Positions 13,757-35,994 of a stretch of 64,000 nt of DNA are shown here, one piece after another (the stretch's first letter is position 1; each line of letters starts with the position of its first letter). This DNA is from a bacterium (GTDB taxonomy: Bacteria; Hinthialibacterota; Hinthialibacteria; Hinthialibacterales; Hinthialibacteraceae). The notes beneath the pieces were generated by a model. The model worked only from the letters and a program-made list of their open reading frames with translations. It was not told the origin of the DNA and made no database searches. The stretch is taken from contig CAXXSM010000143.1 of the NCBI GenBank assembly GCA_963663405.2, forward strand, positions 23,751 to 87,750. The letters run 5' to 3'. A program made the position numbers and the translations under genes.

Positions 13757-13759
13757 AAG

Positions 13760-13848: not shown

Positions 13849-13851
13849 AAA

Positions 13852-14145: not shown

Positions 14146-14163
14146 GCATGAGAGGCGCATAAG

Positions 14164-14547: not shown

Positions 14548-14595
14548 GGTACATGGATAGAAGTAAACGCGCTCATATTCCAAAAGAGCCTTTTT

Positions 14596-15765
14596 TTACT
14601 TCGCGCTGAACCATGCGATGGGAATTGAGTAGAAAACCAAACTTGTGTTTTGGAAATTGGGATTTCCTTTTTTCCAATGATAGTAGGTGAGAAGAATACG
14701 ATCTTGAAACGGTGTGGCGCTGGTGTACGCGAAACCGGAATCGGGATTGTCTTCAATGTTTTTAACATTCTCCCAGGTTTTTCCTTCATCCCGGCTGATG
14801 GCTATTGTGAGAGGCGTTCGTCCCTGCCAACCGGCTTTGTTCCCTTTTGGATTATTGTTCCAGATCATCAGGAGTTCGTTTGATCCTGGAAGCCGAGCGA
14901 TCGTCGCGGGGGCCGCCGGCGCGGTTAGATCCATCGGCTTCACCGGGCTCCAGTGTTCGCCGCCGTCGGAGCTGATCGCTTGATAAATGCGATCGAGCCG
15001 TGTGCGGATAATCATAAGAACCTTGCCATCCTTCAATTCAACCAGCCCCGGTTCCATCGCGGGAGAGCCATCCAGTCCAGCATGGCCCGGCGCCTGGCTC
15101 CATGTTTTTCCATCATCATCGGAATAATAACAGAGGCAGACCTGTTCGTTGTAATCTTTGGATATATCCGCGCACCAAGCGGCGGGAACCAGGATGCGTC
15201 CGGTTGAGAGTTGGATCACACGCGCGTTATTCACGACATGATAGCCCGGACGATCAGTGACCAAACGGGATTCGGACCAGGTTTCAGCCTCATCGGCGCT
15301 CTCACGAAGATACACTTTCAAATCGTCCGGCCCATTCTTCACAAGAAAGAAGAAAAGGATGTTTCCCGAACGCAGCCGCAGGAATGAAACGCTCATCACA
15401 TTCTGTTCCCCAATGTTATCTTGGAGAATAAATTCCCTGCCCCAGCTGCGTCCACCATCAGCGCTTTTCTTCGCCGCGATGACGGCGGAAGCGTGATCGG
15501 CGCGGCCCGTGAATTGGCTCCAAGCCAGCAGTAGCGTTCCATCGTTCAGTTCAATGATATCGCCCTCGCTGTTGCGTGGATTGGATTCTGACGCGGGGCA
15601 GACGGTCAGACGAAATGGGTCATCAATAGTCGATTTCGCATACACGGGGGAGATCCAAGAAAAGGGATTGACCGCAGTATAGGCGGCGAGAAAACTCAAA
15701 AGGAGAAAACTCCGGACAGAAACGAGAGAAGATTCAAAACCATCACACAACCGGTCTAGCGTCAC
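14596..15765 (-). CDS. Secreted BNR-repeat sialidase-like glycoside hydrolase
   Basis: PRNSEGD, Asp-boxes SADGGRSW, SDDDGKTW, SSDGGEHW, SRDEGKTW; GTG start at 15765 inferred (ORF track shows it fused to the upstream membrane protein). Confidence 0.85.
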   Translation of the reverse strand: MTLDRLCDGFESSLVSVRSFLLLSFLAAYTAVNPFSWISPVYAKSTIDDPFRLTVCPASESNPRNSEGDIIELNDGTLLLAWSQFTGRADHASAVIAAKKSADGGRSWGREFILQDNIGEQNVMSVSFLRLRSGNILFFFLVKNGPDDLKVYLRESADEAETWSESRLVTDRPGYHVVNNARVIQLSTGRILVPAAWCADISKDYNEQVCLCYYSDDDGKTWSQAPGHAGLDGSPAMEPGLVELKDGKVLMIIRTRLDRIYQAISSDGGEHWSPVKPMDLTAPAAPATIARLPGSNELLMIWNNNPKGNKAGWQGRTPLTIAISRDEGKTWENVKNIEDNPDSGFAYTSATPFQDRILLTYYHWKKGNPNFQNTSLVFYSIPIAWFSAK

Positions 15766-16038
15766 AACGGCGCCCACCAATCCCAAAAGCGCCAAAACAA
15801 ACGAAGCGCTTTCCCGCATAAGCAGGATACAGAATGGTAAAATCGAGAACAAAAGAAAACCGATGGAAATCAAGAACAAGCAGAGAATGATAATCAGCTG
15901 CACGCTGAATTCCAGCCAATAATCCCCCCGGTAATACCGGCGCAGAACAAACAAATCCCCCGGCGCCTTCCGGATAACAACAAGGACCCAATAAATCATA
16001 AAAACATTCAACATTCCGTTGGCGATGATGTGTGTCAT
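15762..16038 (-). CDS. Small 2-TM protein, paralog 4 of the WxxxxIxxxPxD family
   Basis: YWVLVVIRKAPGDLFVLRRYY...EF matches the three paralogs at 16946-17981; a one-base deletion near 15820 would end it at TGA 15762 in a GTGA overlap. Confidence 0.55.
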
Positions 16039-16110
16039 AGGTTAACCATTTTTTGTTTGTTGTTCGTTGGTTTGTAAGACAAAAAAGATCAGTAATTATA
16101 AGTCAAGAGT

Positions 16111-16314
16111 CTATCGCTCATTGATGACTGTATCAGACCAGCAACTTTCTGAAGAACTAGTCATGTCAAGGATTGCTTCTATCGGAACACTTTGCTTAGA
16201 TTTACCAGACGTCTGTTTCATCGGTTCTAACAATTGAATATAGTCATAAACAACAACAAGTTCCTCAAGATTCATATGTTCGATTGAATCGTATATTCGT
16301 TCTTTCAGGATCAT
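16111..16314 (-). CDS. Small hypothetical protein, antitoxin-like
   Basis: 67 aa, GGAG RBS, AT-rich, downstream of hicA; function is inference only. Confidence 0.5.
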   Translation of the reverse strand: MILKERIYDSIEHMNLEELVVVYDYIQLLEPMKQTSGKSKQSVPIEAILDMTSSSESCWSDTVINER

Positions 16315-16446
16315 AGTTCTTCTCCCGAATGTTCAGCGTCTAATATACAATTATTATCGTCATTTTCTCTCATTCGCATACGATTTAGAAGACTAAAAGC
16401 GGAGCGGAGAGCGTTTAAAGTTTTACAAAGCGTTCTGGCAAAGTAA

Positions 16447-16674
16447 TCACAATTTTTTAAGTAGGTCATCCACTGATATGCGCGCCTGTTTAAGGATATG
16501 TGATAATGTGGACCGCTTAATAGGCTTATGCGCTGGGACAATCAATTTAAGAGTTTCATCATCTTCATGCTTTTGTAACCTTATATGTGATCCGCGCTGA
16601 CGGACAATAATCCATCCATCACGTTGCAATACTTTGATTAATTGATCATAGTTGAGGCTGGGAACTTTACTCAT
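16447..16674 (-). CDS. hicA: HicA family toxin
   Basis: LQRDGWIIVRQRGSHIRL...VPAHKPIKRSTLSHILKQA. Confidence 0.92.
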   Translation of the reverse strand: MSKVPSLNYDQLIKVLQRDGWIIVRQRGSHIRLQKHEDDETLKLIVPAHKPIKRSTLSHILKQARISVDDLLKKL

Positions 16675-16874
16675 ATTGCCAGTTCAATTTTTTCCGCATT
16701 CGATACTGTTAATACATCATCATCAATAGATTCTAAATAGAGTTGGATTGCCTCTTTGCAATTATTTATCGCTTCTTCTTTCGTTTCTCCCTCTGATATG
16801 CAACCAGGCAGCGATGGAACAATTACTGTGTATCCCCCTTCATCGCTAGGTTCGAGATAGATGTTAATCTTCAT
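16671..16874 (-). CDS. hicB: HicB family antitoxin (short form)
   Basis: GGYTVIVPSLPGCISEGETKEEA; ATGA overlap with hicA. Confidence 0.92.
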   Translation of the reverse strand: MKINIYLEPSDEGGYTVIVPSLPGCISEGETKEEAINNCKEAIQLYLESIDDDVLTVSNAEKIELAI

Positions 16875-16945
16875 ATCGATTTCTCCTCGGCGATTTCATT
16901 CACGTTATTCACAATTATACTCCTAATTCTATGTGTATTATCCCC

Positions 16946-17182
16946 TCACGAATGAAACAGCCCAATAAACCCTTTTACCACCGCATAGACATCGGGGATC
17001 AGGTGAAACGCAGCTAGGTACGCGGAGGTGATCCAGCAGAAACCCGCTACGGTGATGGATGTCCAGAATTCATCCAGATCTTCATTCTGGAATTGATCGC
17101 GGATGATGGCGAGATCGGATGGGACGTTTTGAATCGTATAACCGATCCATAGAAGCATGAGAATGAAGAGTATCGCGGCCAT
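16946..17182 (-). CDS. Small 2-TM protein, paralog 3
   Basis: LLWIGYTIQNVPSDLAIIR...EFWTSI. Confidence 0.75.
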   Translation of the reverse strand: MAAILFILMLLWIGYTIQNVPSDLAIIRDQFQNEDLDEFWTSITVAGFCWITSAYLAAFHLIPDVYAVVKGFIGLFHS

Positions 17183-22592: not shown

Positions 22593-22617
22593 TTGGTGGT
22601 TGATATTGGCTAATACG

Positions 22618-22651
22618 AAACGGGGCGCTATGATACGCGCCCCGTTTTTTC
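22618..22651. terminator. Intrinsic terminator between convergent genes
   Basis: aaacggggcgc-tatgatac-gcgccccgtttttt. Confidence 0.8.
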
Positions 22652-22680: not shown

Positions 22681-24000
22681 CTATTCAAGTCGTTCTTTGA
22701 AATAGAGGTTCGTCCGGATATCGGGCCGGAAGCCCCGATCCCCCGCTTTTCTCCCGGCGGCGTAGTTTTGGGCGGCGTTGAAAGAACCGGTTGTGCCAGT
22801 AAGCGGAGACGTAGGATCGATCCTCATGACAATAGGCACAACACCCCGGATTTCCTGGCGTTGTTGATGCCCCTGCGCGCTGGCTTCATACCGGATATCA
22901 ACAATAACGCGGACAATGCCGTCAAAAGATTTTCTGGGGACAAAGTAGATCGCCTTGTCATCATAATCCTCATAAGGCTGCCAATTCTGATGAATTTCCT
23001 GGTTTGTGCCACTCCCCATGAGTTCGTAAAGCCCTCCCACATCCGTCGCCTCGCCGCTCGTGTCGATGGTGAATTTCACTTGGGCGTCATCATCAACCGC
23101 CGCGACATCAATTTTCTCTCCATCGGATCCAACCACTTGGAATTCCAGCAGTGTTTGTTTTTTCTGGCGGTTGGCCAGGAGAAAATCGTCAGGGCTGACC
23201 AGCAGCATCGGTGGATTGGCGAGAATCTGGACGGAGTTGGACACCAACGCCGGTGTAGGCGTCGGAGTCGCTGTACCCGGAAGTAATGTCGGTGTAGGCG
23301 TTGGGCTGGGGCCTTCGGTGGCTGTCGGCGCCGGCGTATTTTCGATGGTGGGCGTTGGGGTAGGCGTGTCGTCATCATTCCCGCCGGTGAGATTGGGAAC
23401 AACCTCTAGATTGTCGATAAAAGCCAATCCTTCCCCTTCATAGCTGATCACGATCAGGCTGTTATTCATCGAGGTATCAATGAAGATATCTGAAATCGAA
23501 AATGATCTGCTGTACACAGAATCAGATCTATTTTCCGGTCTATAGTATGTATTTCCTCCAACAGTGATTTTAAGGCGCCCACCCGCTGGAACTATGGCGC
23601 AAAATCGAATGTCAAACCGCGTGTATCCGACCGGATTCCGGCCCGAGCTAAGGACCTGAGAGATGGAGGCGCCCGAACTGAGTTCCACGACAAAGTTTAC
23701 GCTTTCATCCGCGTTTACCTGCTCGCGTAGAATACCGCCGTTGGAGGAACTTCCCGGTCCCCAGTTCGATGGTTCCAAGCCATCCTGGGAATACGAGTCG
23801 AAATCGCCGTTTATGACAATAGACTGATCATCATCGACACTGCTGTAACAAAACGAATCGAATAAGGGAATCGATGTCGCTGTCGGTGTCGGCGTCAGTT
23901 CAACCTGGGCGAATCCAGCAAGTGGATAGATAATGAATAACGCGATTATGAGAACGTATTGTTGGGACCGTTTCACGATGACGTACCCCTTTCGTGACAT
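22681..24000 (-). CDS. Secreted protein with CBM-like beta-sandwich, Pro-Thr linker and unknown C-terminal domain
   Basis: Signal peptide ending GFA-Q; INGDFD...FIDNLEV jelly-roll-like motifs; TPTPTPT linker. Confidence 0.75.
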   Translation of the reverse strand: MSRKGYVIVKRSQQYVLIIALFIIYPLAGFAQVELTPTPTATSIPLFDSFCYSSVDDDQSIVINGDFDSYSQDGLEPSNWGPGSSSNGGILREQVNADESVNFVVELSSGASISQVLSSGRNPVGYTRFDIRFCAIVPAGGRLKITVGGNTYYRPENRSDSVYSRSFSISDIFIDTSMNNSLIVISYEGEGLAFIDNLEVVPNLTGGNDDDTPTPTPTIENTPAPTATEGPSPTPTPTLLPGTATPTPTPALVSNSVQILANPPMLLVSPDDFLLANRQKKQTLLEFQVVGSDGEKIDVAAVDDDAQVKFTIDTSGEATDVGGLYELMGSGTNQEIHQNWQPYEDYDDKAIYFVPRKSFDGIVRVIVDIRYEASAQGHQQRQEIRGVVPIVMRIDPTSPLTGTTGSFNAAQNYAAGRKAGDRGFRPDIRTNLYFKERLE

Positions 24001-24070
24001 CTTTCTATATATAGTATACTCTTGCCTGTTGCTCTCTCAAATCGTTTGAATGAATCAATCAACGTGTCCG

Positions 24071-27000
24071 TTACCGTTGATAGACGGCTTCGAATTTACG
24101 CTGGGCTTCTACATTTTGATCTTGATCGAAGATCTGGCCAAGGGTTTTTATCCCGAACGTCCGGGAACGGACCGTGATCAGGTTTGAAATCCGGTTCATC
24201 AGCGCTTCCATGTCTTCCGTCGTCATGCGGCGATTCAATTCACGATTGAGCCGTTCACGCAAATCTCCTTGCGCGTTGATTTTCAGATCGCCGGTCCGAT
24301 CCCAGCGCTGTAAGAGCCGTTCGGAACAGCGTTCCCGCCGTCTGAGATGAGTGAGCTGCGCGAGCAGTGTTCCAATATCGGCATAAGGGCCATCGTCGGG
24401 ATCAGAAACGATCGTCACTGGATACGCGAATTGATCGAAACTCGCCTCGCTTTTTCCACTCACGTCGGTTGGAGAGATATTGTAAAGATCCAAGATGGCT
24501 TTGATATCCTCGAATTCTTTGAAATCCCGCTCATCTGCGCGCCCCGTGCTGCGGAATTTATATTCCGTCATCACATCGACGGCGTTTTTCACACTCCGGG
24601 AGAGAAACGCTTCTAGGAATTTATCATCATCAAGGTTATGAACGCCAAAGAACATATCATGCCCACCGGGCTGCCGGCCTTCAATGATGAAGTCAGACAC
24701 AATTGAATTGAAGAAATGACGCTGTTGGAGCGTTTCCGGCTTGCCTGCGCGATCCAATGGAGTGGAGGGCAGCGCGGAAAGCGCCTCTCGCGGCGCAGTG
24801 TTGATATTGACCAAACCCGGCACAATCCCGTTTTCGGCCGTTGTAATCATGTTGTAAATCTGCGTGTATTGATTTTCCCACTGATCCAATCGTTCACGCT
24901 GGGCCAATTGAATGCGGTAATCATTTCTGGATCGGCCCAGCGCCGCCAGTTGGGGATTGGAGATGATCCGCTGGGAGTCGATCGCGATATCTTCCAACCG
25001 TTGGGGAATAATGGGTGTGTTGATTGTTTCGAATTTATTCCCCGTGAAGAGACGCGAAATTTCGCCCACGGTCGCCAATGGCCCATTCTTTACGTAAGCG
25101 GTGTTGTCGATGATATCGTATCGATCGCGCCGTTTGTCAACCAGATCCATACGCTGACGCGGATAGGCGGGCACGTAACCTGTGTTATCCCACCCTGGCG
25201 TTCCGGCCAGCAAGGAGCGCAGTTCGTTCGCGTTATCCGTATCTTGGTTGTCAGCGCGGCCCCGGCCAAAGAGTTCGATTCCCCGGAAGAAATAGTTATC
25301 GTCACCCATACTCGTCAAATTGTAATACCCCTGCGGATCCGGCGCCAAGGGCTGACCATCCGGCATCAACGTTGTAACGGCTAGATCAGGGCGGTCTTCT
25401 GGATAAATCCAACCGGCGTTGCGACGGCCACTACCTATCGATTGAAATTCCGGCGAGAGATCGCGTGTGGTTTTCCGCATGATGACAGCGATTTCGATAA
25501 TGGGTTCATCCATATCCGCGTTCGGCCATCCATTCCGCAGCGAGTCGAAGGACTTGCGCAGATCAATTGTAAAGGCGGTGTCTCCATTGCGCAGTTTGGC
25601 GAATACCGGTTTACGATCGCCGTTGATTGAATAAATATGTTTGGGATTCTCGTTGGCTTCCTGCGGCTCTGCATCTTCGATATCATTCTCACCAGGATTA
25701 AGAATCCGGTAGACCGGCGTAACCATCACTTCACCGACGGGAAGGTCCACATCATATTCAATACCGGTTCGATCGATATACTTACGTCCGAGAACGCGAA
25801 CGGTGAGTTGATCGTCCACCATCGGATCGTATCCAGCGCGGATAAATTCCCGTAATCCCATGCGCCAGATAAAAGCGGTTAACGGGGCTTCTGTTTCGAC
25901 GCGGATTCGATATTCATCCAGTGTTTCTCTCGATTCCGGCGCGATTTCAGTCGCGTTTTCGAATCCACCCAATTGCTTATAGAAACGATTCAATTGTCCA
26001 CTCGACGGAACCGCTTCCGACGCGATCGCGTTGAGATTTTTCCATAAGTTGAAACGGTCTTCATCCGCCGCTTCTTTGGGATACTGGTACCGGTCTCCAA
26101 TGAAGTCCCAGCCGTTCCAATGCGCGTCGAACGAGGGAACCGGATTCGTGTCGATGAAGCGGGTGATCCGCGAGTTACTTGGATCCTTCATGTTTCCAGA
26201 GCCACCGATGCGGCCGCGTGTAATTTTTCCATCCGAGAGGGCCACTTCAGTGACGATCGCGTTTTTTGCGTCCAATTTCATGGTCGGAACCGCGCGCCGG
26301 CCTTTCACCTCTCTGTTTTCCACATACAACTCGGTCTCAAAGTATGTGGGATCGGTCCGTTCGAAACTTTCGAATCCACGGTAGCCGGGCGCAACCAACA
26401 GATCGAGGGAATCGGCATTGCCTGGAATTTCCACGACAACATTATTGAACGTCGTGCGATATTTGAACGAATCGAGATAATTCCCCGCCGGATCGTATAG
26501 CGTGACGTATTTGTCTTCGGGATTGTAGGTTAAGACATCTTCCTCCACATCGAAGAGACGGAATTTTGTGTCGCTCTCTTTCGCGAGTGGAAACACAGCG
26601 CTATCCGGCCGGCGGATGCTGGCCATGATATTTGAGAATTCGAGTTCCGCCATTTCCGGTTCCACGATGCGCTCATCAATATCTGTGACATAGGGATAGT
26701 GCTTCTGGATAAACTCACTTAGTGACGATTTGTCAAATGCAAGGAGCAATTTATTGTCTTCCATTAATAGGTCCTTGCCAGACAGTGTTGTATTCGTCTG
26801 TTGAGAAGCAATAAGTGGCTCATAGGGCACGCCTGTTCCTTCCATGCCTTCGTTGGCTTGAATATCTCTTCCATCATCATCTTCCCATGTGGGTTTCATG
26901 CGTTTGATAATGGAATTATCGGGCAGGATGTAGTGCCCATAAGGCGTATTGATAGTATATCCGGTCAGATCGATGTCATCGCTGGACAGATTGACCAATT

Positions 27001-30000
27001 CCACATATTGGACACGGGGATTGATCAACTCGATCCGGTCGAACGATGTGCCGTAATATGCGTCTGTCAATGGCGCGTTCGCTTGGATGGTCACCTCAAG
27101 ACGTCCGTTATCCCCGATGCGCACCCGCTGCGCGGAACTGGAGTAACGGCGCGCGTTAGGCGCGGGGAAGGGTGTCAATCGATAATTAAGCTTGAATGCT
27201 GTTGTGGCTAACTGGGCGGTGGTTTTATCGATCACCAGCTGACCGGCGGCTGTCGCCGCGTCACCCACAAAAATTCCCCACCGCGCCATACGCGTGGTCT
27301 GAGCGGAATGTAATTTCCTGCCTTCCCGAGCCGCCGCTGAAGAAATATTTCACTTCTTCGCTGGGCCGGTATTGGTGATAAGGGCTGAGGTAGATTACGA
27401 CGTCATACAAGCCCGCCGGGATATTTTCAAAAACCCAAACCGCTTCTTCCACTCCCTGCGAGCCGACTTTCACGGGATCGTTAGCCGCCGGGACCTGGGT
27501 GTTGGTGACGGAGAAGATAAACGCAGGCGCGAGAATATCCATATTCACGACCGGCAGAAATGTATGTACTGTATCCCGGAAGCCCTGGGGAAGGAACATA
27601 TATCCTGGAACTGGATTGGCGGCCGAACCTTGCGCGGCGCCCGACGCGATCGGTCCCCAGTTCGTGTCAACGGGTCCCTGTACGTTCGGACTTCCGCTGA
27701 CTTTCTGTCCATCGTCCTGATTACCCGAAACGAGAGTGAAACGGCTGCTGGGTTGAATGGAGAGAGGCTTGCGCCGGTCATCCGGATCGTATGTCACCTC
27801 TTCCAGTGTTTCTTCCGCTTCCAGGCGGATGACGGGTTTCGCCATGACTTCGTTAATCCGGATGGCTTCTACTCCTTCATAGCTAGTAGACATGCCCGTC
27901 TGCGGTGGATTGGGGAGCAGCATCCGCATTTGTTCGGTGAAGTCCATCCGTTTGCGGCTTCGGTTGTCAATACCGATGAGAAGCCGGGGGTGCATGGCGA
28001 ATTCACGCTGGCGTGTGGTAAAGAGATCAAAACTGCGCCGGGTTACTGGATCCGCCAGGACGGCGTCGTCCTTGTTCGATCCAAGGGCTCTCATAACATC
28101 GGGATCGTTGGCGACTTTGAAGGGCGCCCAGGCGTCCACGAAATCGAGCAGGTTCAAGGCGATTTGGAATTCGGGCGGATCTTCATCCATGCGCCCGTCT
28201 TCATCATCATCGAAACAGGCGATATACCGTTCCCCGATTTCGTCCACTTCGCCATCCCCATCGTTGTCCACGCCGTCCAATTCGGGCGCGTACATGGCGC
28301 CGAGGACTTGGGGATCGTAGAAGTCCGCGAAACTGTCACCATCGTCATCAGCGAAACTGGTACGATGCTTGGCGGTCGCGTCGTTGTTCAACTTACGTTC
28401 CTTCACGATATCGCCTTCCGCCGAATCTTCCCCTTCCTGTTCGGGATCGCCTCCGATTCCAGGATAGCCGTCGGCGCTCAAGTCACCATACGCGTCTTCA
28501 CTGACGTGCCATTCGGGATCGTAGGAGAGCAGGTGATCGTGGTTGAAATCACCGTCGTCATCGATGAGGTTATCCCCATCGCTGTCCACCCCGTCGCCTT
28601 CCACGACCATTCCCGCGCGGATTTCCTGGTCTTTCTCGTCACGCGGGCGGGTTCGATCTTCCCCGAGAACGCGTAGACGGCCTACGATCCCCTGACTGGC
28701 GGATTGCCGCACTTCATCCCGCCGTTCTCCATCGCCATCATCATCCTGCCCATTGAACGCGACAGAAGGGGAACCAACGTCCGGTTCACCATAGCCGTCA
28801 AAATCACCGCTGGGGTAGAAATTCCCATCCCAGTCGTCGGAGGTTTCATCGATAAATCCATCGCCGTCGTCGTCTTCGCCGTTGGGGACGCCATTTTTGA
28901 CATCCGGTTCGGCTTCGGATTGCCAATCGCCGTCGTTATCCACTTGAATGGCCAAGAGGTCTTCGAGACGGACAGGCGGGCTGTATTGGAAGTCCGACCG
29001 GTTTTCCCGTTTCGAGGATCCCTCATCCCAAATATCCGACGCGCGCCAATTGGCGCTCAGGTTAGGATTGATCTTCGCGATTTCGTTGTTTTTCCCACTC
29101 AAGGGACCGGAGATTTCATCGGATTGACTGTAAATCGTGGTCGAATCCCGCAGGATTTCAAAGAGAGTGGGGAGCATTTCATTTTTAGGATCGATCGCGG
29201 CGTTTTGTGTATTGCGCATCAAACCGACGAGGAGCAGATCATCGACGGTGGAATAGGGCCGGTCATCTCCCTTGGGATTGAAGACGCTGAATTCAGAAGG
29301 ATCATCGATACCTTCATTTTGTTCATCGATGTACCCGTCTCCATCATCGTCGATTTTATTACCGGGGCGGAAATCCTCGGCTTTTTCAGGATTGCTATTA
29401 ATCGGGCCATTGATTCCCGAACCGGCGGTGTTGACCGTGGAGGGACCAATGTACCGTTCATCTTCTTCGTTGTACAAACCATCTTCATCATTATCTACAC
29501 CGTCTCCGGTGACGGCGAACGGCTCCCCATCGAATTGCGAGGTGCGATACGCGTCACTATATTCTTTGACGGTGACAATACGAGGGTTGTTATTGCCATT
29601 GTCATCCACTTTTTCGACGCCGGGATACCGCAAACTTTTCCCCCCGTCGGACACCGATCCATACCGGAGATTGACAATGTTCATCGCCAACTCTTCCGCT
29701 TGTTTCAGATTGAAGGTACGGTTGCTTCCACTGGATGTGCGGTAGTTGACGATCCGGTTGTATAAGAAAAGAGGAAGATCTAATTCCGCCGGGGAGAGAC
29801 CAAGGTTATAAGTGAAACCGCCGCCGATGCCGTAATTGTTTCCCACGACGTTGATGTTGATCTTGGCGTTTTCATCAAAAACGCCTAATGAATCGCCATC
29901 CGCGTCATATCCAGTGCCGGGTGGGAAAGGCACGGCGCCTTGGTTGTCGGGCCTTCGCAGATCGTAACCATCTTCATTCACTTGCCAGTCTTCGTCGTCA

Positions 30001-30605
30001 TCTTCGGTCATATCAGACTGACCGTCGTCATCCACGTTCCCATCCAGGTTGTCGTCAATCCCCTTGAGACCGGGAGCTCCATCCCCTTTGGCGGCTGAGG
30101 TGGTTTGACGGATTCCTGTGAGATCAAGGTTTGTTCCCGTTACATCACCCTCGGGATCTTCATCAATCCCGAGTGGGATCGGTGTGGGGTAGACCCGCAC
30201 GATCCGCCTCCGGTTTGGCAATGGACGGTTATCGACGAGATGGCTGCGGGCGTCGTAGGTCAGATTATCCCCCACGCGTCCGGCGTAGCCAACCGCCCAG
30301 GGATCGAGGAGGGAGACATAGCGGGGCTGCGGACGTCCCAGAACGATATGTTCCTTGCTGGGATCCAGGTCTTTCTCCACTTGGCTCAACACCCCTTGAA
30401 TGGCCGCTTCGGCGAATTCATGCACGTTGACCGTCGTAGCGTACCGCTGGACGGTAATTTCTTCCATGCGGAGCGTATAGGTAAATCCGACCAAGATTAA
30501 GGCGAATATGGAAAGCAGGGCCAGGACGGTCAACAGCGCGACGCCCTTTTCCTCCGGCTTTCCATGTGGTTTTGTTTTTTGGGAGAAGAATCGTATCGTA
30601 TTCAT
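24071..30605 (-). CDS. Giant GspK/PilX-like minor pseudopilin (about 2,177 aa; +1 frameshift in a T5 run near 27270)
   Basis: KG-VALLTVLALL N-terminus, DENAKININ, GLVNINTAPREALSALP, C-terminal NLITVRSRTFGIKTLG; removing one T joins AVGNF to VGDAATAAG. Confidence 0.8.
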
Positions 30606-30684
30606 GGCTCAAACCTGCCTTTTTACGTTTTCTCAAGCGGCGTTTCGTTCTATGAAAATCGGTCAATGAATAGTACTAACCGTC

Positions 30685-32046
30685 TTAAATTCCTACACTT
30701 CGATAGTTATTAGGGATAAACACCCGTGTCGTGAATGGTTTCGGATTGGTTTTATGTTCCCGGTCCTGCACGTAGATTGTAATATCCACCATATTGGGGA
30801 GCCCATCCGTTTTTTGGACAATGCGATCGCTGACATCCGCGTAAACGGATGTATTGTTCTGCGCGGGCCGTAACTGTTGAGGCATAATTGGCAGAAAACG
30901 GTTGTTGGGTCCCAGCGGATAACGATCGTCGGGTTCATTAACGATAATGTTTTCGAAACTCATCTTCCCCTGACGGTTTTCGGTGCTGTTGCTAGCCGCC
31001 GGCATATTGAATATTTTTCCATTTACGTTCGTGCTGGGGAAAAGGAGAGCGGTCTCGCGTGTGGAATCCCACTCTTCGGAATAGCGCCAACCGCCCCGGT
31101 TGTAATCGTAGTACCAATACCGGAACCGCAGTCCACGAACGTCGTAGGCGAGAACCTGGAAGAGTTTCGCTGGATTTTTATTCGTATAATTATTCGATTC
31201 AGAGACCAGCTGGCCGTATTTCGATCCAAAATCCCAATTTTCGATGGCTTTTTGTAGATCCGAGCTGGAAACGACGGGCCGATCTACGGGAGCGGCCGTG
31301 GGTAAAAGGGCTTTTCCCGATGAATCATCAACAAATTGCCCGAAATCATAGATTTTATCGGTTCCGGAAGAATTCCCACTGCGGATTTTAAGGATTTGGG
31401 CGCGCCGGATCAGCTTTGTTCCGCTGGGATCGAGGCCGTAGGAGATTTCCTGGAGGATGAGATCGCCGGAATTCTCGACCGCGCTGACAAAATGCAGAAT
31501 GTCGCTGGGGAAGAGACCGATATCTTCGTCGATACAGGCGGAATCACCAGCTTCACAGCCAAGAGGGTCGGTCTGGGGACGGGAACTTCCGGACAAGGCG
31601 TCCGCTGCCCCCCCTGAATAATCCCCATCGATTCCATCCAAGACTTCCTCGTCAACCAATCCATCGCCATCGTCGTCTTTGCCGGCGCCGGGACATCCTT
31701 CGTCTGGATCAGCGATAACGTCGCGATGAATGCCGGCAAAGCGAAACCGAGGGCCTTGTATCACGTTTACTGTGCTTTGCTCATAGGAATAAAATGGTTT
31801 AACGGAATCCGGCGTGAGGTAAGCCGAACGGAGATCGGTCGCGATATAATCCAGCGCCGACCGGCCGGTTTCGTTGATTTCAATGCGGCGCATGGCGATT
31901 TCACGCGCGTCCAATACGACGCGGAACGTTTGGGCGGCCATTCCCGCCAAAATCGAGATTACTGCAATGGAGATCATGAGTTCGACAAGGGTGAACCCTC
32001 GATCGCGTAATCGCTGGGCGCTATGATTCCGAAGTTTTGCATTCAT
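30685..32046 (-). CDS. GspJ/PilW-like minor pseudopilin with acidic repeats
   Basis: RG-FTLVELMISIAV class III signal; ALDYIATDLRSA, LRFRYWYYD, LPNMVDITI motifs. Confidence 0.85.
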   Translation of the reverse strand: MNAKLRNHSAQRLRDRGFTLVELMISIAVISILAGMAAQTFRVVLDAREIAMRRIEINETGRSALDYIATDLRSAYLTPDSVKPFYSYEQSTVNVIQGPRFRFAGIHRDVIADPDEGCPGAGKDDDGDGLVDEEVLDGIDGDYSGGAADALSGSSRPQTDPLGCEAGDSACIDEDIGLFPSDILHFVSAVENSGDLILQEISYGLDPSGTKLIRRAQILKIRSGNSSGTDKIYDFGQFVDDSSGKALLPTAAPVDRPVVSSSDLQKAIENWDFGSKYGQLVSESNNYTNKNPAKLFQVLAYDVRGLRFRYWYYDYNRGGWRYSEEWDSTRETALLFPSTNVNGKIFNMPAASNSTENRQGKMSFENIIVNEPDDRYPLGPNNRFLPIMPQQLRPAQNNTSVYADVSDRIVQKTDGLPNMVDITIYVQDREHKTNPKPFTTRVFIPNNYRSVGI

Positions 32047-32062
32047 GATCCTGTTCCTTTTT

Positions 32063-32125
32063 TATATGAAAATGAGTTTCTGCAACTTTCTCGTTCTAGA
32101 TTTCTTCTGCAACTCATTTTCATTT
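32063..32125. repeat. Family A element inside the pseudopilin operon (I-J intergenic)
   Basis: 58-bp core 32066-32123. Confidence 0.85.
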
Positions 32126-32163
32126 ATCCCGTGCGGCTTTAAAATTTGCCGCGCTTTGGGGCC

Positions 32164-33693
32164 TTATTCTTTCGTGAAGTTACGCGCGACGATTCCCCGT
32201 GGCTGTCCTCCGATCAGCGTAAAGGATTCGGAGGGGGCGCGGAGGTTGATGAATCCAATCAAGGTGAAATCGAATTTATACGTGTCTTCATCGATCTGTC
32301 CATCAAAATCATCGTCGATACCATCCAATTTTTCTTCGTCGATTCCCCATTCGATGGCGCCATAGGAGACACGCCGGTTGCGGAGAAGTTTTATATCATC
32401 ACTCGCGTAGGAGCCTTCCGAGCGTTTGTCGACCCGTTTCAAATCTTCATCGTTGTCGATTCCATCCCCTCCCCAGGTAATGACGATTTCAACACGGCGC
32501 CAATCCGGAAGCGGGGCGGCGATGCAATCTTCATCGACCAATCCATCGGACAGGGGGGTTTGGCTATATCCAGTCAGATAACGGCCGTCTTTCGTCCGGA
32601 AATCCATATCCAATCCATCCGGCATTTCTTCATCGACGAAGCCATCGCCGTCGTTGTCGAAGCCATCGCCCAGATCGGGGATGCCATCGCCATTGATGTC
32701 CTGGATGCCATTCCGGCCATTATCGGGGATGCGTCCCACACGAATCTGCCAGGCGTAACGATCATACGGCGCCGGGAAGCGGGCGGGAGCGAAGGGGAAA
32801 GCGGCTAACCGGCAGTCTTCATCCACGCGGCCGTCTTTATCGTTGTCCCGTCCGTCCCAGATTTCCTCATCGATGCCTTCATCGATTTCTCCATCCCCAT
32901 CGTTGTCGATGCCGTCCGCGAGGGCTGGGGTTTTCGGATCGCCATCGTTATCCTCACCGTCCCCGTCGTTGTCGTAGCGGTCCCCCGCCAACAGGGGAAG
33001 CATGAGGCGGGAATTCAAAACGCGGACGGAAGCGAGGCGGCAGTCTTCATCGATCATATTGTCACCATCGTTATCGATGCCATCGGCGTATTCTTCATCA
33101 ATGTTAAATTCGGGATCGTAATAGACATCGCCGTCCGCGAACATCTGTGAAGTTTTCGGATTAATAACCCGGGCGTCGGCGGAACCGGAATCGCCGTCAT
33201 CATCGATTATGCCGTCTCCATCATCATCGATGCCATTCGCCTTCACTCCACCCACGCGCAGACGCACCTGCAACGCGTCCAATTCGGGCAATCCATCATA
33301 ATCTTTGTCCGGCAGAAGGTTGCCGTTGAGATCATGCACATACCGCCCCTGCAATGTGAAGGTGACATTATTGAAATCGTCATCGTACGCGTTGCCCGGC
33401 AGAGGGAGAACCACGTTTTCGGCGCCGGGGATGACGGGAAAGTTCACCGGATCGTTTTTCATTCCCTCAAAAATGGTTTGGGCCAGGAGCGTGGCTTGGG
33501 TTAAATCTTCCGCGCGATGGCTGGCTTCAATTCCATAGGGGAAAACCTTGACGATGGAGAGCAGCCCCAGCGCGAGGATCGCCGCGGCGACGATCACCTC
33601 TAAAAGAGAGAAAGCCCGCTGGTTGTTTTTTCCAGAGAAGCGGTTTGGGACCGTTCCGGTCGATTTATGCGCGCAATTCATGTTCATTTTCAT
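32164..33693 (-). CDS. GspI/PilV-like minor pseudopilin expanded by DGxDxDGDGxxDE repeats
   Basis: RA-FSLLEVIVAAAILALG; TQATLLAQ, YAWQI, RRVEIVITW core motifs; GAGGAGG RBS before ATG 33693. Confidence 0.85.
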   Translation of the reverse strand: MKMNMNCAHKSTGTVPNRFSGKNNQRAFSLLEVIVAAAILALGLLSIVKVFPYGIEASHRAEDLTQATLLAQTIFEGMKNDPVNFPVIPGAENVVLPLPGNAYDDDFNNVTFTLQGRYVHDLNGNLLPDKDYDGLPELDALQVRLRVGGVKANGIDDDGDGIIDDDGDSGSADARVINPKTSQMFADGDVYYDPEFNIDEEYADGIDNDGDNMIDEDCRLASVRVLNSRLMLPLLAGDRYDNDGDGEDNDGDPKTPALADGIDNDGDGEIDEGIDEEIWDGRDNDKDGRVDEDCRLAAFPFAPARFPAPYDRYAWQIRVGRIPDNGRNGIQDINGDGIPDLGDGFDNDGDGFVDEEMPDGLDMDFRTKDGRYLTGYSQTPLSDGLVDEDCIAAPLPDWRRVEIVITWGGDGIDNDEDLKRVDKRSEGSYASDDIKLLRNRRVSYGAIEWGIDEEKLDGIDDDFDGQIDEDTYKFDFTLIGFINLRAPSESFTLIGGQPRGIVARNFTKE

Positions 33694-33703
33694 GGTGACC
33701 TCC

Positions 33704-34507
33704 TCATTCACTCTCTTCGGCGGGTTCATCCAACAGCCAAGGGCTCATGATGGCGTATCCGTACCGTCGGACGCGGCCGGTGAGGCGAATAACCTCAAGG
33801 GTAGTGACTTTATAGCGTTCAATCGCGGCGTCTTTGCCCCACTGAAAATTATTCGTGTCAGCTCTTTTGATCACATCCGCGTAGTCATACGAATTGCCGC
33901 CAACCAAAAAGACTTCCCCGTCTCTCGTGAGATGGATGATTGGGGCGATTTCGTTGTAATTCGTGGAGGTTTCCTCACCTTCGAAATAGACGTTGCTGAT
34001 CGAGCCCCGTGTGTTGAATTCGATGTAGAAGACTTCTGGATTGCCCACACCGGGTGTACGGCCATCGAGATCACCGACCATAACCGCGTCCGGAAGATAT
34101 TCCGGATCGGTGAGTTCGATTGTATTGACGACCAAATCCCGTGAACCAGCGACATGAACGGCGGCTTCGAAGTCGTATTGATTGAGATACTTGCCTTCGA
34201 TCCATGTGGCGGCCCGCCGGGTGCGTGGACCGTTCATTTCATCAGGAAACCCTTCGAGGGCGCCTGCGTCGATCACAACCCGGAGATCCCGGCGTTTCGC
34301 GATGCATTCCTGACGCGCTTGCCTGAAATTGGCTTCGATCATGCGTGTGGCGCTTTCGACCCGCGCCGCTTTGATCTGAGCGACGTAACTCATCGCGCCT
34401 ACCCCGATTAATATTCCAATGATCCCGATGACGATCATAATCTCCACCATCGAGAACGCGGCGTTGCGGGAAGACCGGCCGTGAGTACCATGTTGAGTGA
34501 CAGTCAT
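33704..34507 (-). CDS. GspH/FimT-like minor pseudopilin
   Basis: AA-FSMVEIMIVIGIIGIL; FRQARQECI, IEFNTRG, TGRVR motifs. Confidence 0.85.
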   Translation of the reverse strand: MTVTQHGTHGRSSRNAAFSMVEIMIVIGIIGILIGVGAMSYVAQIKAARVESATRMIEANFRQARQECIAKRRDLRVVIDAGALEGFPDEMNGPRTRRAATWIEGKYLNQYDFEAAVHVAGSRDLVVNTIELTDPEYLPDAVMVGDLDGRTPGVGNPEVFYIEFNTRGSISNVYFEGEETSTNYNEIAPIIHLTRDGEVFLVGGNSYDYADVIKRADTNNFQWGKDAAIERYKVTTLEVIRLTGRVRRYGYAIMSPWLLDEPAEESE

Positions 34508-35253
34508 GATTTTTGCCCCTTGTGGCGCAGTAATTTATCGTTCGATTACCCGTTTCCGTCCGGGTGTCCACCGGCGTCATGGATAAGATCCAGCCAACCG
34601 GCGGAAGGTTCCTTCAACCTAAGAATATCGTAAGGGAGACGAGTTGTAAGCGAAGAATAAAAATGAATGCGATATTTCTGGAGAAACGCGGAACCGATAG
34701 CGCACATTTCTCCATTCCTATCAAAGAATGGACGCAAGCCGTAACAGTACAATTCGCTCACCTATTATGCGCTGCGTTCGATCGAGGAGGGGATGGCGCT
34801 CTATTGAAATCGATAGAGAAACCGTCTTTTTTCAACGCAAAAACGACCGGCGGACTACGATCGATAAATCCAAGCCAAACCGATTCAATTTTTTCGTAAA
34901 AAAAGACTTTGGGCGTACGATCCGCCCTTCTTTTTACACCTAAAGTGTAAAAAAATGATAAAAACCACTCTCACATCAAACTACAGCTCGTCAAACTAAA
35001 CCCATTGAAATATAACAAGTTATACAATGTATCCCCAAAATTCACACAACAATATATCATGGGTTTTCAAAAACATCAGAAAATTTTAACTCTTTTTTTG
35101 AAAAAAAGCAGAGACAGAACCCAGATTACACATCATTCATTGTATAAGGAATACAGATTCTCTTAGATTGAGGACACTGTATCTTCACTTTACTCTTTCG
35201 GGTATGCTATCATCTTGTCTGATTTCCACAAAGAATGGATAAGGAGTTCAAAG

Positions 35254-35994
35254 ATGAAACCGCGTATACGATATATTGGAATGCTCATGATCTGCGCCGC
35301 CATGTTCTCTATGATGGATTCAACAGCCGCGCAGCAGACTTTTATGGTCAAAGATGGGGAGACGATTGTATTCCTTGGCGACAGCATCACCCAAGGAGCC
35401 TCCCGTCCGGAAGGATTCATTCCCCTGATTAATCTGTTCTGTGGGGTGAATGGTTATGAGGTGAAGACGATCAACGCTGGAATCGGAGGCCATAAGTCGA
35501 GTGATATGCTGGCGCGTCTGGATAGGGATGTGTTGAAACACAATCCCGATTGGGTTTTTATCTCTTGCGGAGTGAACGATGTATGGCACCAAGCGCGGTG
35601 GGAAGGGATCTATCTGCCGGATTACAAGCGAAATATGGCGGAAATTGTCGATCGATGCCTAAAAGCCGGCGCAAAGATCATTCTGCTGACCTCCACACCG
35701 ATCTACGAAAACCTGAACAGCGAAGAGAATAAGAAACTGCGGACCTACAATGATTTCCTGAAAACCTTGGCGAAATCGAGGGGAATCATTCTCTGCGATC
35801 TATTCGCCGCTTTCGAGAAAATTTATGAAGTTAAGATGACCGATGAAAATTTAATGACGACGGACGGTGTCCACATGAAACCCCGCGGCTACCGCTTGAT
35901 GGCGCGGGAAATGTTGAAAGCGCTGGGCGCCAGTGGGAGAGAGCTCGCCCTCGCAGAGAATCGCTGGGAACTCGTGAATAATATGCAAAAATAA
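35254..35994 (+). CDS. Secreted SGNH/GDSL hydrolase
   Basis: FLGDSIT, NAGIGG, GVND, DGVH; signal peptide. Confidence 0.92.
   Translation: MKPRIRYIGMLMICAAMFSMMDSTAAQQTFMVKDGETIVFLGDSITQGASRPEGFIPLINLFCGVNGYEVKTINAGIGGHKSSDMLARLDRDVLKHNPDWVFISCGVNDVWHQARWEGIYLPDYKRNMAEIVDRCLKAGAKIILLTSTPIYENLNSEENKKLRTYNDFLKTLAKSRGIILCDLFAAFEKIYEVKMTDENLMTTDGVHMKPRGYRLMAREMLKALGASGRELALAENRWELVNNMQK

What the first reader, a model, noticed from the sequence alone, without database searches (positions are those of the whole stretch)
22681..34507. Stand-alone giant minor-pseudopilin cassette (H-I-J-K plus a secreted protein): candidate undescribed tip complex or adhesin system
Seen: four co-oriented genes with class III prepilin-type N-termini (AA-FSMVE, RA-FSLLE, RG-FTLVE, KG-VALLTV) in GspH-I-J-K order, followed by a secreted Pro-Thr-linker protein and a terminator. 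Sizes are 267, ~509, 453 and ~2,177 aa. No major pilin, ATPase, platform protein, secretin or prepilin peptidase is in the window. Known: GspI/J/K form the T2SS pseudopilus tip and are normally a few hundred residues at most; the Verru_Chthon A-D cassettes of Verrucomicrobia have a similar layout of three pilins plus one huge PilX-like protein. Inference: an exchangeable tip module that uses machinery encoded elsewhere and may select cargo or act as a surface adhesin.
Basis: partly seen in the sequence, partly recalled or inferred. Interest (0 to 1): 0.82.

Follow-up and report, generated by a model that had tools for sequence, protein, structure and literature searches.

The report
Giant minor-pilin tip operon, Hinthialibacterota
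This is a conserved five-gene operon for the starter and tip subunits of a type IV pilus or type II secretion filament, with hugely enlarged subunits and a sugar-binding-like helper protein; the kind of system is known, but this family is unnamed.

Summary
Five co-oriented minus-strand genes (22681-34507) encode three prepilin-type proteins (267, 509/521 and 453 aa), a GspK/PilX-like giant and a secreted non-pilin protein.

The giant is split in the window by one extra base in a T5 run (27269-27273). Relatives carry one 2130-2320 aa frame. Both public contigs that bridge the site lack that base. The 2177-aa gene is therefore probably intact.

The operon is single-copy and syntenic in 19 of 19 same-family and 6 of 6 same-order genomes searched. 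H-I-J-K also occurs in the sister families examined. Named relatives are Candidatus Hinthialibacter/OLB16 MAGs.

Known HMMs match only the N-terminal helices, and public records say "hypothetical protein". Profile comparison links both ends of the giant to GspK. The fifth protein models as a CBM-like jelly roll plus a second beta-sandwich, with a strongly conserved C-terminal tail.

The genome has three complete T2SS-like operons, each with its own H-I-J-K, plus orphan ATPase, platform, secretin and prepilin peptidase genes.

Best reading: a fimU-pilVWXY1-type priming/tip module, probably an adhesin. It is a new variant of a known kind. "Exchangeable" is not supported. This scan has noted similar orphan giant-GspK cassettes in other phyla, but none from this family.

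The parts
33704..34507 (-). H: 267-aa prepilin-type protein in the GspH/FimU position (A|FSMVE)
   Evidence: ORF. Pfam N_methyl 21.5 bits against a cut-off of 21.2. Best NCBIfam hits are Verru_Chthon D (28.6 bits, cut-off 70) and GspH (25.7 bits, cut-off 80), over residues 18-81 only. Orthologues stand first in the operon.
32164..33729 (-). I: 509/521-aa prepilin-type protein in the GspI/PilV position (A|FSLLE), with nine conserved acidic DxDxDG-type loops
   Evidence: ORF. N_methyl 28.4 bits. Best NCBIfam hits are PilV (E 3.7e-8) and XpsI (E 3.2e-7), over residues 37-94 only. Loop count. The loop Asp/Gly columns are invariant in 13 sequences (A6). The strict motif occurs six times here and twice in K_N, and two or more times in no other of the genome's 31,772 ORFs.
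30685..32046 (-). J: 453-aa prepilin-type protein in the GspJ/PilW position (G|FTLVE), with one acidic loop
   Evidence: ORF. N_methyl 36.0 bits. hhalign of A7 against the genome's three canonical GspJ gives probability 97.7% and E 2.3e-12, over the first 68 residues only. Alignment A7 of 14 sequences.
24071..30605 (-). K: giant GspK/PilX-like cap subunit, 2177 aa if read as one frame (G|VALLTV, no Glu5). About 1650 aa lie between the two GspK-like ends. The insert has eight acidic loops (about residues 180-810) and an LTD-like segment (about residues 1200-1240).
   Evidence: Two ORFs. One frame of 2130-2320 aa in relatives. hhalign against the genome's own canonical GspK: N-terminus probability 89%, E 2.1e-6; HhH 'NINTA' region probability 92%, E 7.4e-7. 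LTD is below its cut-off in the window (23.2 against 34.3) and in 6 of 7 relatives' K proteins. Of 21 differences from a close strain, 18 are synonymous.
27269..27273 (-). T5 homopolymer holding the one-base frameshift that splits K in the window
   Evidence: Sequence. The junction aligns to relatives in both frames. In one search, 2 of 2 bridging contigs (X2 and X3) lack one base at 27269; depth is 2-3.
22681..24000 (-). S: 431/439-aa secreted non-pilin protein. It has a signal-peptide-like N-terminus, a Pro/Thr linker, a CBM-like jelly roll (about 55-205), a second Pro/Thr linker, a second beta-sandwich (about 255-395) and a conserved C-terminal tail, GDRGFRPDxRTNLYFRER.
   Evidence: Alignment A1 of 23 sequences. 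AF2 model with mean pLDDT 74.3. Foldseek top hit is CBM4-2, 2y64_A: E 4.3e-6, TM-score on the target 0.50. VIA top hit is CBM61, 2xom_A: Z 11.2, rmsd 2.8, 127 residues aligned. There are 22 homologues in 5.8 billion clusters, none with a Pfam domain or any name other than 'hypothetical protein'.
22617..22648 (.). Terminator-like hairpin between S and the convergent upstream gene
   Evidence: 12-bp stem with 8 G-C pairs. Minus-strand reading; the T-tract is stronger on the + strand.
34624..34647 (-). Conserved upstream element, ACAACT-N12-GATATT, about 115-140 nt before the H start; function unknown
   Evidence: Aligned in 5 of 5 same-family loci, with GATAT invariant. Coordinates read. No Rfam family matches in 34400-35300 apart from one chance-level hit at E 0.57.

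Best explanation
The five genes are one operon for the priming/tip complex of a type IV filament (a T4P or T2SS-like pseudopilus). It is laid out like fimU-pilV-pilW-pilX-pilY1 or gspH-I-J-K.

Inferred steps:
- H, I and J are cut by a prepilin peptidase encoded elsewhere (C139).
- I and J pair.
- K has no Glu5. It caps the complex and closes its own pilin sheet with its C-terminal strands, as GspK and CpaL do.
- The set is assembled by one of the machines encoded elsewhere. Candidates are the three T2SS-like operons or the scattered orphan ATPase, platform and secretin genes.
- The roughly 1650-aa insert of K and the enlarged I and J carry 18 TSP3/EF-hand-like acidic loops, probably Ca2+ sites. 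They form a very large distal head.
- S, exported by the Sec route, joins this head, possibly through its conserved C-terminal tail, and offers a CBM-like surface.

The most likely role is adhesion to, or capture of, polysaccharide material by these glycan-degrading bacteria.

Shown here: gene content, N-terminal motifs, conservation, synteny, purifying selection, distant GspK likeness at both ends of K, the fold class of S, and the presence of machinery elsewhere in the genome. Inferred: assembly into a filament tip, Ca2+ binding, attachment of S, and the adhesive role.
For: - N_methyl passes its cut-off in H, I and J. K has G|VALLTV without Glu5.
- The best weak NCBIfam hits follow the order H/D, I/PilV, J/C, K/A.
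- hhalign of K against the genome's own canonical GspK: N-terminus 89%, E 2.1e-6; HhH region 92%, E 7.4e-7. The two matches are colinear. J against canonical GspJ: 97.7% over 68 residues.
- One open frame of 2130-2320 aa in relatives. K is matched in 19 of 19 same-family and 6 of 6 same-order genomes.
- Order is kept in 11 of 11 loci and 5 of 5 loci. H-I-J-K is present in 4 of 4 same-class loci.
- 18 of 21 strain differences are synonymous.
- No core machinery lies beside the cassette in 7 of 7 relatives' loci.
- Machinery exists elsewhere in the genome: 7 T2SSE hits, 9 secretin hits, 13 T2SSF-domain hits and 2 Peptidase_A24 hits. There are orphan TPR-GspE, GspF/PilC and PilQ-like genes.
- S: model pLDDT 74.3. 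CBM-type jelly roll by Foldseek (E 4.3e-6) and by VIA (Z 11.2, rmsd 2.8, 127 aligned).
- I-J complex test: weak support. Score 0.58; best of 3 controls 0.00. The mark was reached by 116 of 157 solved complexes and 2 of 215 mismatched pairs. At 0.60 or under it was reached by only 18 of those 157 and by both mismatches that passed. The runs agree in at least 77% of contacts and the partner's pLDDT is at least 68. My own alignments were used. GspI-GspJ complexes are solved, so the pass may reflect likeness only.
- Framework from the literature. The gene after pilIJK supplies a tip adhesin whose last ~10 residues complete PilK's sheet, while GspK and CpaL do this in cis (PMC13533445: abstract and sections 5 and 10 read). 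Two minor-pilin sets prime two filaments on one machine, and PilX lacks Glu5 (PMC13759059: passages read).
Against: - Every specific HMM is far under its cut-off and covers only N-terminal helices.
- Profiles of K's ends, of I and of J find no GspK, GspI or GspJ chain in the PDB by sequence.
- The AF2 model of K's C-terminal half is poor (mean pLDDT 43.8). No pilin fold has therefore been shown for any globular part.
- H and I have Ala, not Gly, at position -1.
- All three complete T2SS-like operons already have their own H, I, J and K, and no partner machine is identified.
- S has no PilY1-type domain, and its binding to the complex was not tested.
- A CBM-like fold does not show sugar binding.
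- There are no expression data.
Confidence: 0.7

Rival explanations
1. It is an alternative pseudopilus tip for one of the three T2SS-like secretion machines. It changes which exoproteins are pushed out (cargo selection). S is a cargo or a periplasmic helper, not a tip subunit.
For: K resembles GspK, with the HhH 'NINTA' motif, not a beta-solenoid PilX. K seems to supply its last strands in cis, as T2SS GspK does, though this rests on the low-confidence secondary structure. The genome has three GspD-E-F-G-type operons and many secreted glycan-degrading enzymes around the cassette.
Against: Each T2SS-like operon already encodes its own H, I, J and K. A 2177-aa cap with a 1650-aa insert is hard to fit in a periplasmic piston under a secretin. 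The five-gene layout with a non-pilin last gene is the T4aP/MSHA pattern (PMC13533445, section 10).
Confidence: 0.15
2. The proteins are not filament subunits. The prepilin-like helices serve only as inner-membrane anchors for a giant Ca2+-binding envelope or surface complex.
For: A motif regex flags 147 ORFs genome-wide, far more than any filament needs. Only the helices match known pilins. No pilin fold has been shown.
Against: The H-I-J-K order is conserved and K lacks Glu5. K is colinear with GspK at both ends. The I-J pairing has weak support.
Confidence: 0.1
3. The cassette is decaying in this organism. K is a true pseudogene, broken by the frameshift.
For: The window as assembled has the frameshift. 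X1, the best holder, has no contig bridging the site.
Against: 2 of 2 bridging contigs have the intact frame. 18 of 21 differences from a close strain are synonymous on both sides of the break. Other genes of this assembly are split in the same way: T2SSF and secretins and the XPB helicase. All other cassette genes are intact.
Confidence: 0.05

Closest known systems
T4aP minor-pilin operons with a tip adhesin: fimU-pilVWX-pilY1 (Pseudomonas), pilHIJK with PilC (Neisseria), mshDOPQ (Vibrio) and the three sets of Myxococcus. Sources: PMC13533445, abstract and sections 5 and 10 read; PMC7541494, search listing and start of abstract only.
   Same: Four prepilin-type genes in conserved order are followed by a large non-pilin secreted protein. 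The operon lies apart from the ATPase, platform and secretin genes. The cap subunit lacks Glu5. Ca2+-type loops are present (for PilY1 this is recalled, not tested here).
   Different: No PilY1/PilC beta-propeller: S is 431 aa with two beta-sandwiches. The bulk sits in the K subunit (2177 aa) and in I and J (about 500 and 450 aa). K carries the GspK HhH motif. Whether S adds a strand in trans was not tested.
T2SS tip complex GspH-GspI-GspJ-GspK (ETEC GspIJK and P. aeruginosa XcpVWX, as cited in PMC13533445; PDB codes 3CI0 and 5VTM come from earlier notes or recall)
   Same: Gene order, the N-terminal motifs, and GspK-like N-terminal and HhH regions. K probably closes its sheet in cis.
   Different: K is 5-7 times the usual size; the genome's own GspK proteins are 422-454 aa. 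I and J are enlarged. All equivalog HMM scores are far below their cut-offs. There is a fifth gene, S. The operon is not part of a gsp operon.
Verru_Chthon cassette proteins D, B, C and A (TIGR02596, TIGR02598, TIGR02599, TIGR02600)
   Same: Three prepilin-type proteins plus one giant, away from the machinery, in a genome rich in glycan-degrading genes. The best weak hits follow D-B-C-A = H-I-J-K.
   Different: Scores are 28.6, 14.2, 26.6 and 14.8 bits against cut-offs of 70, 51.4, 256.5 and 332.3, and cover helices only. The cassette is single-copy per genome, not multi-copy. S is an extra gene. No paper text holds the name.
Cyanobacterial PilX_EPS/HpsA with PilV_EPS, and Caulobacter CpaL. 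Sources: PMC13759059, passages read; PMC13533445, section 10.
   Same: A cap pilin whose pilin fold is interrupted by a very large insert before the last strand(s). A co-evolving enlarged PilV-class partner. A separate minor-pilin set that primes a specialised filament on a shared machine.
   Different: The insert here is not shown to be a beta-solenoid. It has acidic loops, an LTD-like segment and the GspK HhH motif. No HpsA-type model was hit at E <= 0.1. It is almost twice the size threshold those authors quote for HpsA-like proteins (>1,280 aa).

Membership tests
Type IV filament minor (pseudo)pilin priming set (GspH-I-J-K / FimU-PilV-W-X) | Class III (prepilin) N-terminus with Glu5 in the H-, I- and J-type subunits | tested here: met
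   Pfam N_methyl scores 21.5, 28.4 and 36.0 bits against a cut-off of 21.2. H and I have Ala at position -1.
Type IV filament minor (pseudo)pilin priming set (GspH-I-J-K / FimU-PilV-W-X) | A cap (K/X-type) subunit without Glu5, last in the I-J-K order | tested here: met
   K reads G|VALLTV, with Thr at +5. The order is kept in 11 of 11 and 5 of 5 loci. The rule is quoted from passages of PMC13759059 and PMC13533445.
Type IV filament minor (pseudo)pilin priming set (GspH-I-J-K / FimU-PilV-W-X) | Scores over the curated cut-offs of the GspH, GspI, GspJ and GspK equivalog models | tested here: not met
   Scores are 25.7/80, 17.8/44.35, 19.0/64.85 and 13.6/130 bits.
Type IV filament minor (pseudo)pilin priming set (GspH-I-J-K / FimU-PilV-W-X) | GspK helix-hairpin-helix alpha-domain | tested here: inconclusive
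   hhalign gives 92%, E 7.4e-7 over 51 columns. Pfam T2SSK scores 19.9 against 24.2 in one of seven relatives' K proteins. There is no PDB sequence hit.
Type IV filament minor (pseudo)pilin priming set (GspH-I-J-K / FimU-PilV-W-X) | Pilin fold of the globular parts, and an I-J heterodimer | tested here: inconclusive
   The K C-terminal-half model has pLDDT 43.8. The I-J complex test gave weak support: 0.58 against a best control of 0.00.
Type IV filament minor (pseudo)pilin priming set (GspH-I-J-K / FimU-PilV-W-X) | Assembly ATPase, platform, secretin and prepilin peptidase present in the genome | tested here: met
   operon content.
Verru_Chthon cassette A-D | Scores over the cut-offs of TIGR02596, TIGR02598, TIGR02599 and TIGR02600 | tested here: not met
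   Scores are 28.6/70, 14.2/51.4, 26.6/256.5 and 14.8/332.3 bits. The whole-genome search gave 17.8 bits, at K's N-terminus only.
PilY1/PilC/MshQ-class tip adhesin (for S) | Non-pilin secreted protein encoded directly after the K/X-type gene | tested here: met
   S follows K in the 10 of 11 loci that reach beyond K's end, and in 5 of 5 same-order loci. It is not detected in the 4 same-class loci. The N-terminus is signal-peptide-like, with no prepilin motif. This was read by eye; no signal-peptide predictor was run.
PilY1/PilC/MshQ-class tip adhesin (for S) | PilY1/PilC C-terminal beta-propeller domain | tested here: not met
   No Pfam family matches at E <= 0.1 apart from a chance-level hit. 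The model shows two beta-sandwiches.
PilY1/PilC/MshQ-class tip adhesin (for S) | Extreme C-terminus adds a beta-strand to the K/X subunit | not testable with these tools
   The tail is the most conserved part of S (R422, P426 and E436 are invariant; A1). It is disordered in the monomer model. The single complex job went to the I-J pair, and K exceeds the size limits.
Carbohydrate-binding module, beta-jelly-roll class (for S domain 1) | CBM-type jelly-roll fold | tested here: met
   Foldseek: CBM4-2, E 4.3e-6, TM-score on the target 0.50. VIA: CBM61 Z 11.2, CBM22 Z 10.8, CBM4 Z 9.9. MAM and toxin receptor-binding domains score alike, so only the fold class is shown.
Carbohydrate-binding module, beta-jelly-roll class (for S domain 1) | Sugar-binding site or binding activity | not tested
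   No ligand-site analysis was done. No CBM Pfam model was hit.

The most novel reading that the evidence does not exclude
Hinthialibacterota build a dedicated 'glycan-fishing' filament. Its tip is a calcium-stiffened head of roughly 3,600 residues made of K, I and J. The CBM-like protein S is locked onto it in trans by its conserved C-terminal tail, through beta-strand addition as for PilY1 and MshQ. The filament runs on the genome's scattered orphan TPR-ATPase, platform and secretin genes, not on the three T2SS-like operons. It would then be a single-copy, lineage-defining organelle for capturing polysaccharide particles, and the largest pilus tip subunit known.
Probability: 0.2. Interest if true: 0.7.

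Novelty: new variant of a known kind. Interest (0 to 1): 0.45.

Why it matters
This cassette extends the range of type IV filament tips. The cap subunit is 5-7 times the usual size, the I- and J-type partners are enlarged with it, and all three share one acidic loop motif. A small CBM-like fifth protein takes the place of PilY1.

It gives a concrete, testable case for the recent beta-strand-addition model of tip licensing in a phylum known only from metagenome-assembled genomes.

It also points to a surface structure that may explain how these sulfated-polysaccharide degraders attach to or capture their substrate. All members are currently annotated 'hypothetical protein' or left unnamed.

Tried and rejected
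- AF2 of K residues 1114-2177 with 15 sequences gave mean pLDDT 43.8. That is too poor for a fold search, so none was run. Only the secondary-structure outline was used, with caution.
- hmmsearch of profiles A2, A3, A6 and A7 against PDB sequences found no GspK, GspI or GspJ chain. It found only pilin N-terminal helices or chance hits.
- The ESM Atlas did not hold S or the K homologue P0005.
- Rfam found no riboswitch or other family upstream of H, and nothing over gathering score in the whole window.
- A programmed frameshift in K was considered and rejected. Relatives have a single frame, the stop lies two codons past the run, and bridging contigs lack the extra base.
- The conserved upstream ACAACT-N12-GATATT element was first read as a sigma-70 promoter. 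The 12-nt spacer does not fit that reading, so its function is left open.
- A paralogous cassette in the genome: none found by phmmer, apart from N-terminal helices.
- A true Verru_Chthon A protein in the genome: none found.
- A phylogenetic profile to pick the partner machine was not run. Only three same-class genomes lack the cassette, which gives too little contrast.
- X4 does not cover the frameshift site, and X1's contigs break there. Neither bears on which allele is real.

Full report
**What is there.** On the minus strand of 22681-34507 lie five co-oriented genes with short gaps:
- H: 34507..33704, 267 aa.
- I: 33729..32164, 521 aa from the first start. It is 509 aa from Met13 at 33693, which fits the orthologues' starts in A6.
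- J: 32046..30685, 453 aa.
- K: 30605..24071.
- S: 24000..22681, 439 aa. It is 431 aa from the GTG at 23976, as in the window's own database entry P0017.

Pfam N_methyl passes its gathering score in H, I and J at 21.5, 28.4 and 36.0 bits, against 21.2. K begins G|VALLTV with no Glu5. A 12-bp hairpin lies 33 nt after the S stop; its T-tract is better on the opposite strand. None of the 30 other window ORFs of 150 aa or more has a T2SSE, T2SSF, Secretin, Peptidase_A24 or T2SSG domain. A prepilin regex finds only H, I and J in the window.

**The frameshift.** K is two overlapping frames in the window, of 1114 and 1072 aa. They meet at a T5 run at 27273-27269.
- Both frames align to the relatives' single protein at the junction. 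With four T the gene would be 2177 aa.
- In one search, the two Logan contigs that bridge the site both leave out one base at 27269. One is X2 record 5, from the same sample as the best holder. The other is X3 record 11, from another study and a roughly 99% identical strain.
- X1's contigs break at 27270-27272, and X4 does not cover the site. Depth is only 2-3.
- Of the 21 base differences between the window and the X3/X4 strain over 26300-28300, 18 are synonymous in the local frame. That is 12 of 13 upstream of the break and 6 of 8 downstream.
- Other genes of this assembly are split in the same way: T2SSF and two secretins and an XPB helicase.

I read the break as an assembly or homopolymer error and K as intact. 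This is not proven.

**Distribution.** The genome is 8.44 Mb in 170 contigs and 82% complete.
- With K's C-terminal half as query, 19 of 19 same-family and 6 of 6 same-order genomes have a strong match. Wherever the contig allows, the match lies in one open frame of 2130-2320 aa. 5 of 7 and 1 of 1 genomes of two sister families have weak matches. 0 of 1 genome of a third same-class family and 0 of 6 outgroup genomes match.
- In 11 of 11 related loci the genes present are in the order H-I-J-K-S. Four loci hold all five; the rest are cut by contig ends.
- 5 of 5 same-order loci hold all five genes.
- 4 of 4 same-class loci hold enlarged H-I-J-K, with K of 1235-1815 aa, but no detectable S.
- There is no paralogue in the window's genome beyond N-terminal helices.
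- The family is rare in public data. There are 16 hits among 1.84 billion representatives, 24 full-length K proteins of 2129-2278 aa and 22 S homologues among 5.8 billion clusters.
- Every source name given is 'hypothetical protein'. One K is from Candidatus Hinthialibacter antarcticus. Other records are titled Candidatus Omnitrophota, including SURF_12. PMC9324843 places SURF_12 in Hinthialibacterota (=OLB16) (passages). That paper mentions flagella, Tad pili and sulfated-polysaccharide degradation, and nothing on this cassette.

**Identity of the proteins.** NCBIfam and Pfam match only the N-terminal helices.
- The best hits run H to Verru_Chthon D/GspH, I to PilV/XpsI, J to Verru_Chthon C/GspJ and K to Verru_Chthon A/GspK. 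All are far under their cut-offs.
- Profiles of I, J and the two ends of K find no Gsp chain in the PDB by sequence.
- Profile-profile comparison with the genome's own canonical proteins is more telling. K residues 2-64 align with GspK 6-68 (89%, E 2.1e-6). K's 'ITT..GLVNINTAPREAL' region, around residues 1913-1981, aligns with the GspK HhH region (92%, E 7.4e-7). J aligns with GspJ over 68 residues (97.7%).
- A 'DENAKININ' motif at about residue 245 resembles the first GspK 'DES.KLNLN' motif. This is by eye, against the A4 consensus.
- K is therefore best read as a GspK-type cap with about 1650 residues inserted between its two halves.
- The insert holds eight acidic loops.
- It also has an LTD-like segment. 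LTD is below its cut-off in the window (23.2 against 34.3) and recurs in 6 of 7 relatives' K proteins. It is precomputed as PF00932 in 5 of the 24 full-length homologues.
- I carries nine acidic loops and J one. Their Asp/Gly columns are invariant across 13 sequences.
- The strict form, GxD[DN]DxD[GN]x[IVLMFT][DN][DE], occurs two or more times only in I (six) and K (two) among the genome's 31,772 ORFs.
- By recall, the loop resembles EF-hand, TSP3 and PilY1 calcium sites. Ca2+ binding is an inference.

**S.** The model built from 23 sequences has mean pLDDT 74.3.
- It shows a signal-peptide-like N-terminus, two Pro/Thr linkers and two beta-sandwich domains.
- Domain 1 (about 55-205) is a CBM-type jelly roll. 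Foldseek's top hit is CBM4-2: E 4.3e-6, TM-score on the target 0.50. An independent VIA scan gives CBM61 at Z 11.2 (rmsd 2.8, 127 aligned), with CBM22, CBM4, CBM16, CBM36 and porphyran- and hyaluronan-binding modules at Z 9.9-10.8. MAM and toxin receptor-binding domains score alike. This shows a fold class, not a function.
- The last ~20 residues, GDRGFRPDxRTNLYFRER, are the best conserved part of S and are disordered in the monomer model.

**Machinery elsewhere.** The genome has 7 T2SSE hits, 9 secretin hits, some of them pieces of split genes, 13 T2SSF-domain hits, 2 prepilin peptidase hits and 3 canonical GspK.
- Three operons, on C133, C118 and C29, are complete T2SS-like sets. Each has its own small H, I, J and K; the K proteins are 422-454 aa.
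- There are also orphans: a 905-aa TPR-GspE ATPase next to two pseudopilin genes on C132, a stand-alone GspF/PilC on C133, a GspF-like gene with a GspG-like gene and an ECF sigma pair on C118, PilQ-like secretins on C18, C60 and C23, and a lone prepilin peptidase on C139.
- In 7 of 7 relatives' loci no core gene lies beside the cassette. Same-family loci share the window's upstream GDSL lipase and sulfatase genes.

**Test of pairing.** The complex test of I (65-521) with J (43-453) gave 'weak support'.
- The median score was 0.58 (runs 0.47, 0.58, 0.59). The best of 3 controls was 0.00.
- The mark was reached by 116 of 157 solved complexes and 2 of 215 mismatched pairs. At 0.60 or under it was reached by only 18 of those 157 and by both mismatches that passed.
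- The runs agree in at least 77% of contacts, and the partner's pLDDT is at least 68.
- My own alignments were used. GspI-GspJ structures exist, so the pass may reflect likeness only.

**How it most likely works.** The layout is that of fimU-pilV-pilW-pilX-pilY1 or mshDOPQ: four prepilin-type genes in fixed order, then a non-pilin secreted protein, in an operon apart from the machine.
- PMC13533445 (abstract and sections 5 and 10 read) shows that PilI-PilJ recognise PilK once its sheet is completed. Completion comes in trans from the last ~10 residues of PilC, PilY1 or MshQ, or in cis in GspK and CpaL. The middle of CpaL is dispensable for assembly.
- PMC13759059 (passages read) shows two minor-pilin sets priming two filaments on one machine, and PilX caps whose pilin fold is interrupted by a large insert.
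- On this frame the cassette is a priming/tip module whose cap has grown to 2177 aa. K probably closes its sheet in cis; the two final strands are seen only in the poor model.
- S may ride on the tip through its conserved tail. I could not test this.
- The CBM-like and LTD-like parts, the acidic loops and the glycan-degrading lifestyle make adhesion to or capture of polysaccharide material the most likely role. I put that at about 0.35. I put the tip-module reading itself at about 0.7.

**Novelty.** The kind is known, as Verru_Chthon cassettes, T4aP minor-pilin operons, PilX_EPS/HpsA and CpaL.
- This scan has 36 notes holding the search words 'giant pseudopilin GspK cassette minor pilin'. The 8 shown describe comparable cassettes in other phyla. 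None concerns this family.
- New here are the size, the joint enlargement of I, J and K with one shared acidic motif, the small CBM-like fifth protein, and the single-copy conservation across the genomes searched of this little-known lineage.
- 'Verru_Chthon' occurs in no searched paper. Searches for Hinthialibacterota, for Omnitrophota with pilin and for giant minor-pilin tip complexes turned up no description of this family. Supplements were not read.

Noticed in passing
G000 contigs C133, C118 (loci L044, L045, L049): Several genes of this assembly are split into adjacent frames: T2SSF on C118 (163+130 aa), secretins on C133 (476+172+170+114 aa) and C118 (359+442 aa), and an XPB helicase on C133 (353+158 aa). 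The assembly seems prone to indel errors.
   Followed up: partly
window 12400-17000: A low-GC stretch (0.40-0.42) holds small toxin-antitoxin genes: HigB with an HTH partner (13852-14547), HicA/HicB (16447-16874) and a SocA/Panacea-like ORF (12475-12831).
   Followed up: partly
window 45144-53894: Two very large sensor kinases lie next to each other on the minus strand. One is 1822 aa with many PAS domains and a PocR domain. The other is a 979-aa hybrid kinase with REC, GAF and PAS domains.
   Followed up: no
window 10114-12351: A radical SAM/SPASM enzyme (421 aa) is followed by a 267-aa ORF with no Pfam match. This may be a peptide-modification locus.
   Followed up: no
window 6757-8875 and 60050-62833: Two BlaR1/M56-type membrane peptidases (355 and 927 aa). 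The first overlaps a Kelch-repeat protein.
   Followed up: no
G000 whole genome: A simple regex finds 147 ORFs with a prepilin-type N-terminus, far more than the filament systems would need, as in PVC-type genomes.
   Followed up: no
G000:C132 (L047:9943-12660): A 905-aa assembly ATPase has an N-terminal TPR region fused to a T2SSE domain. It stands alone beside two pseudopilin genes, with no platform gene near. It is a candidate motor for orphan minor-pilin sets.
   Followed up: partly
L041:6037-6903 and L040:12012-14012: In the sister family, the gene after the giant K is not S. It is a 288-aa T2SSG-like pseudopilin in one genome and a 666-aa alpha/beta-hydrolase in another.
   Followed up: no
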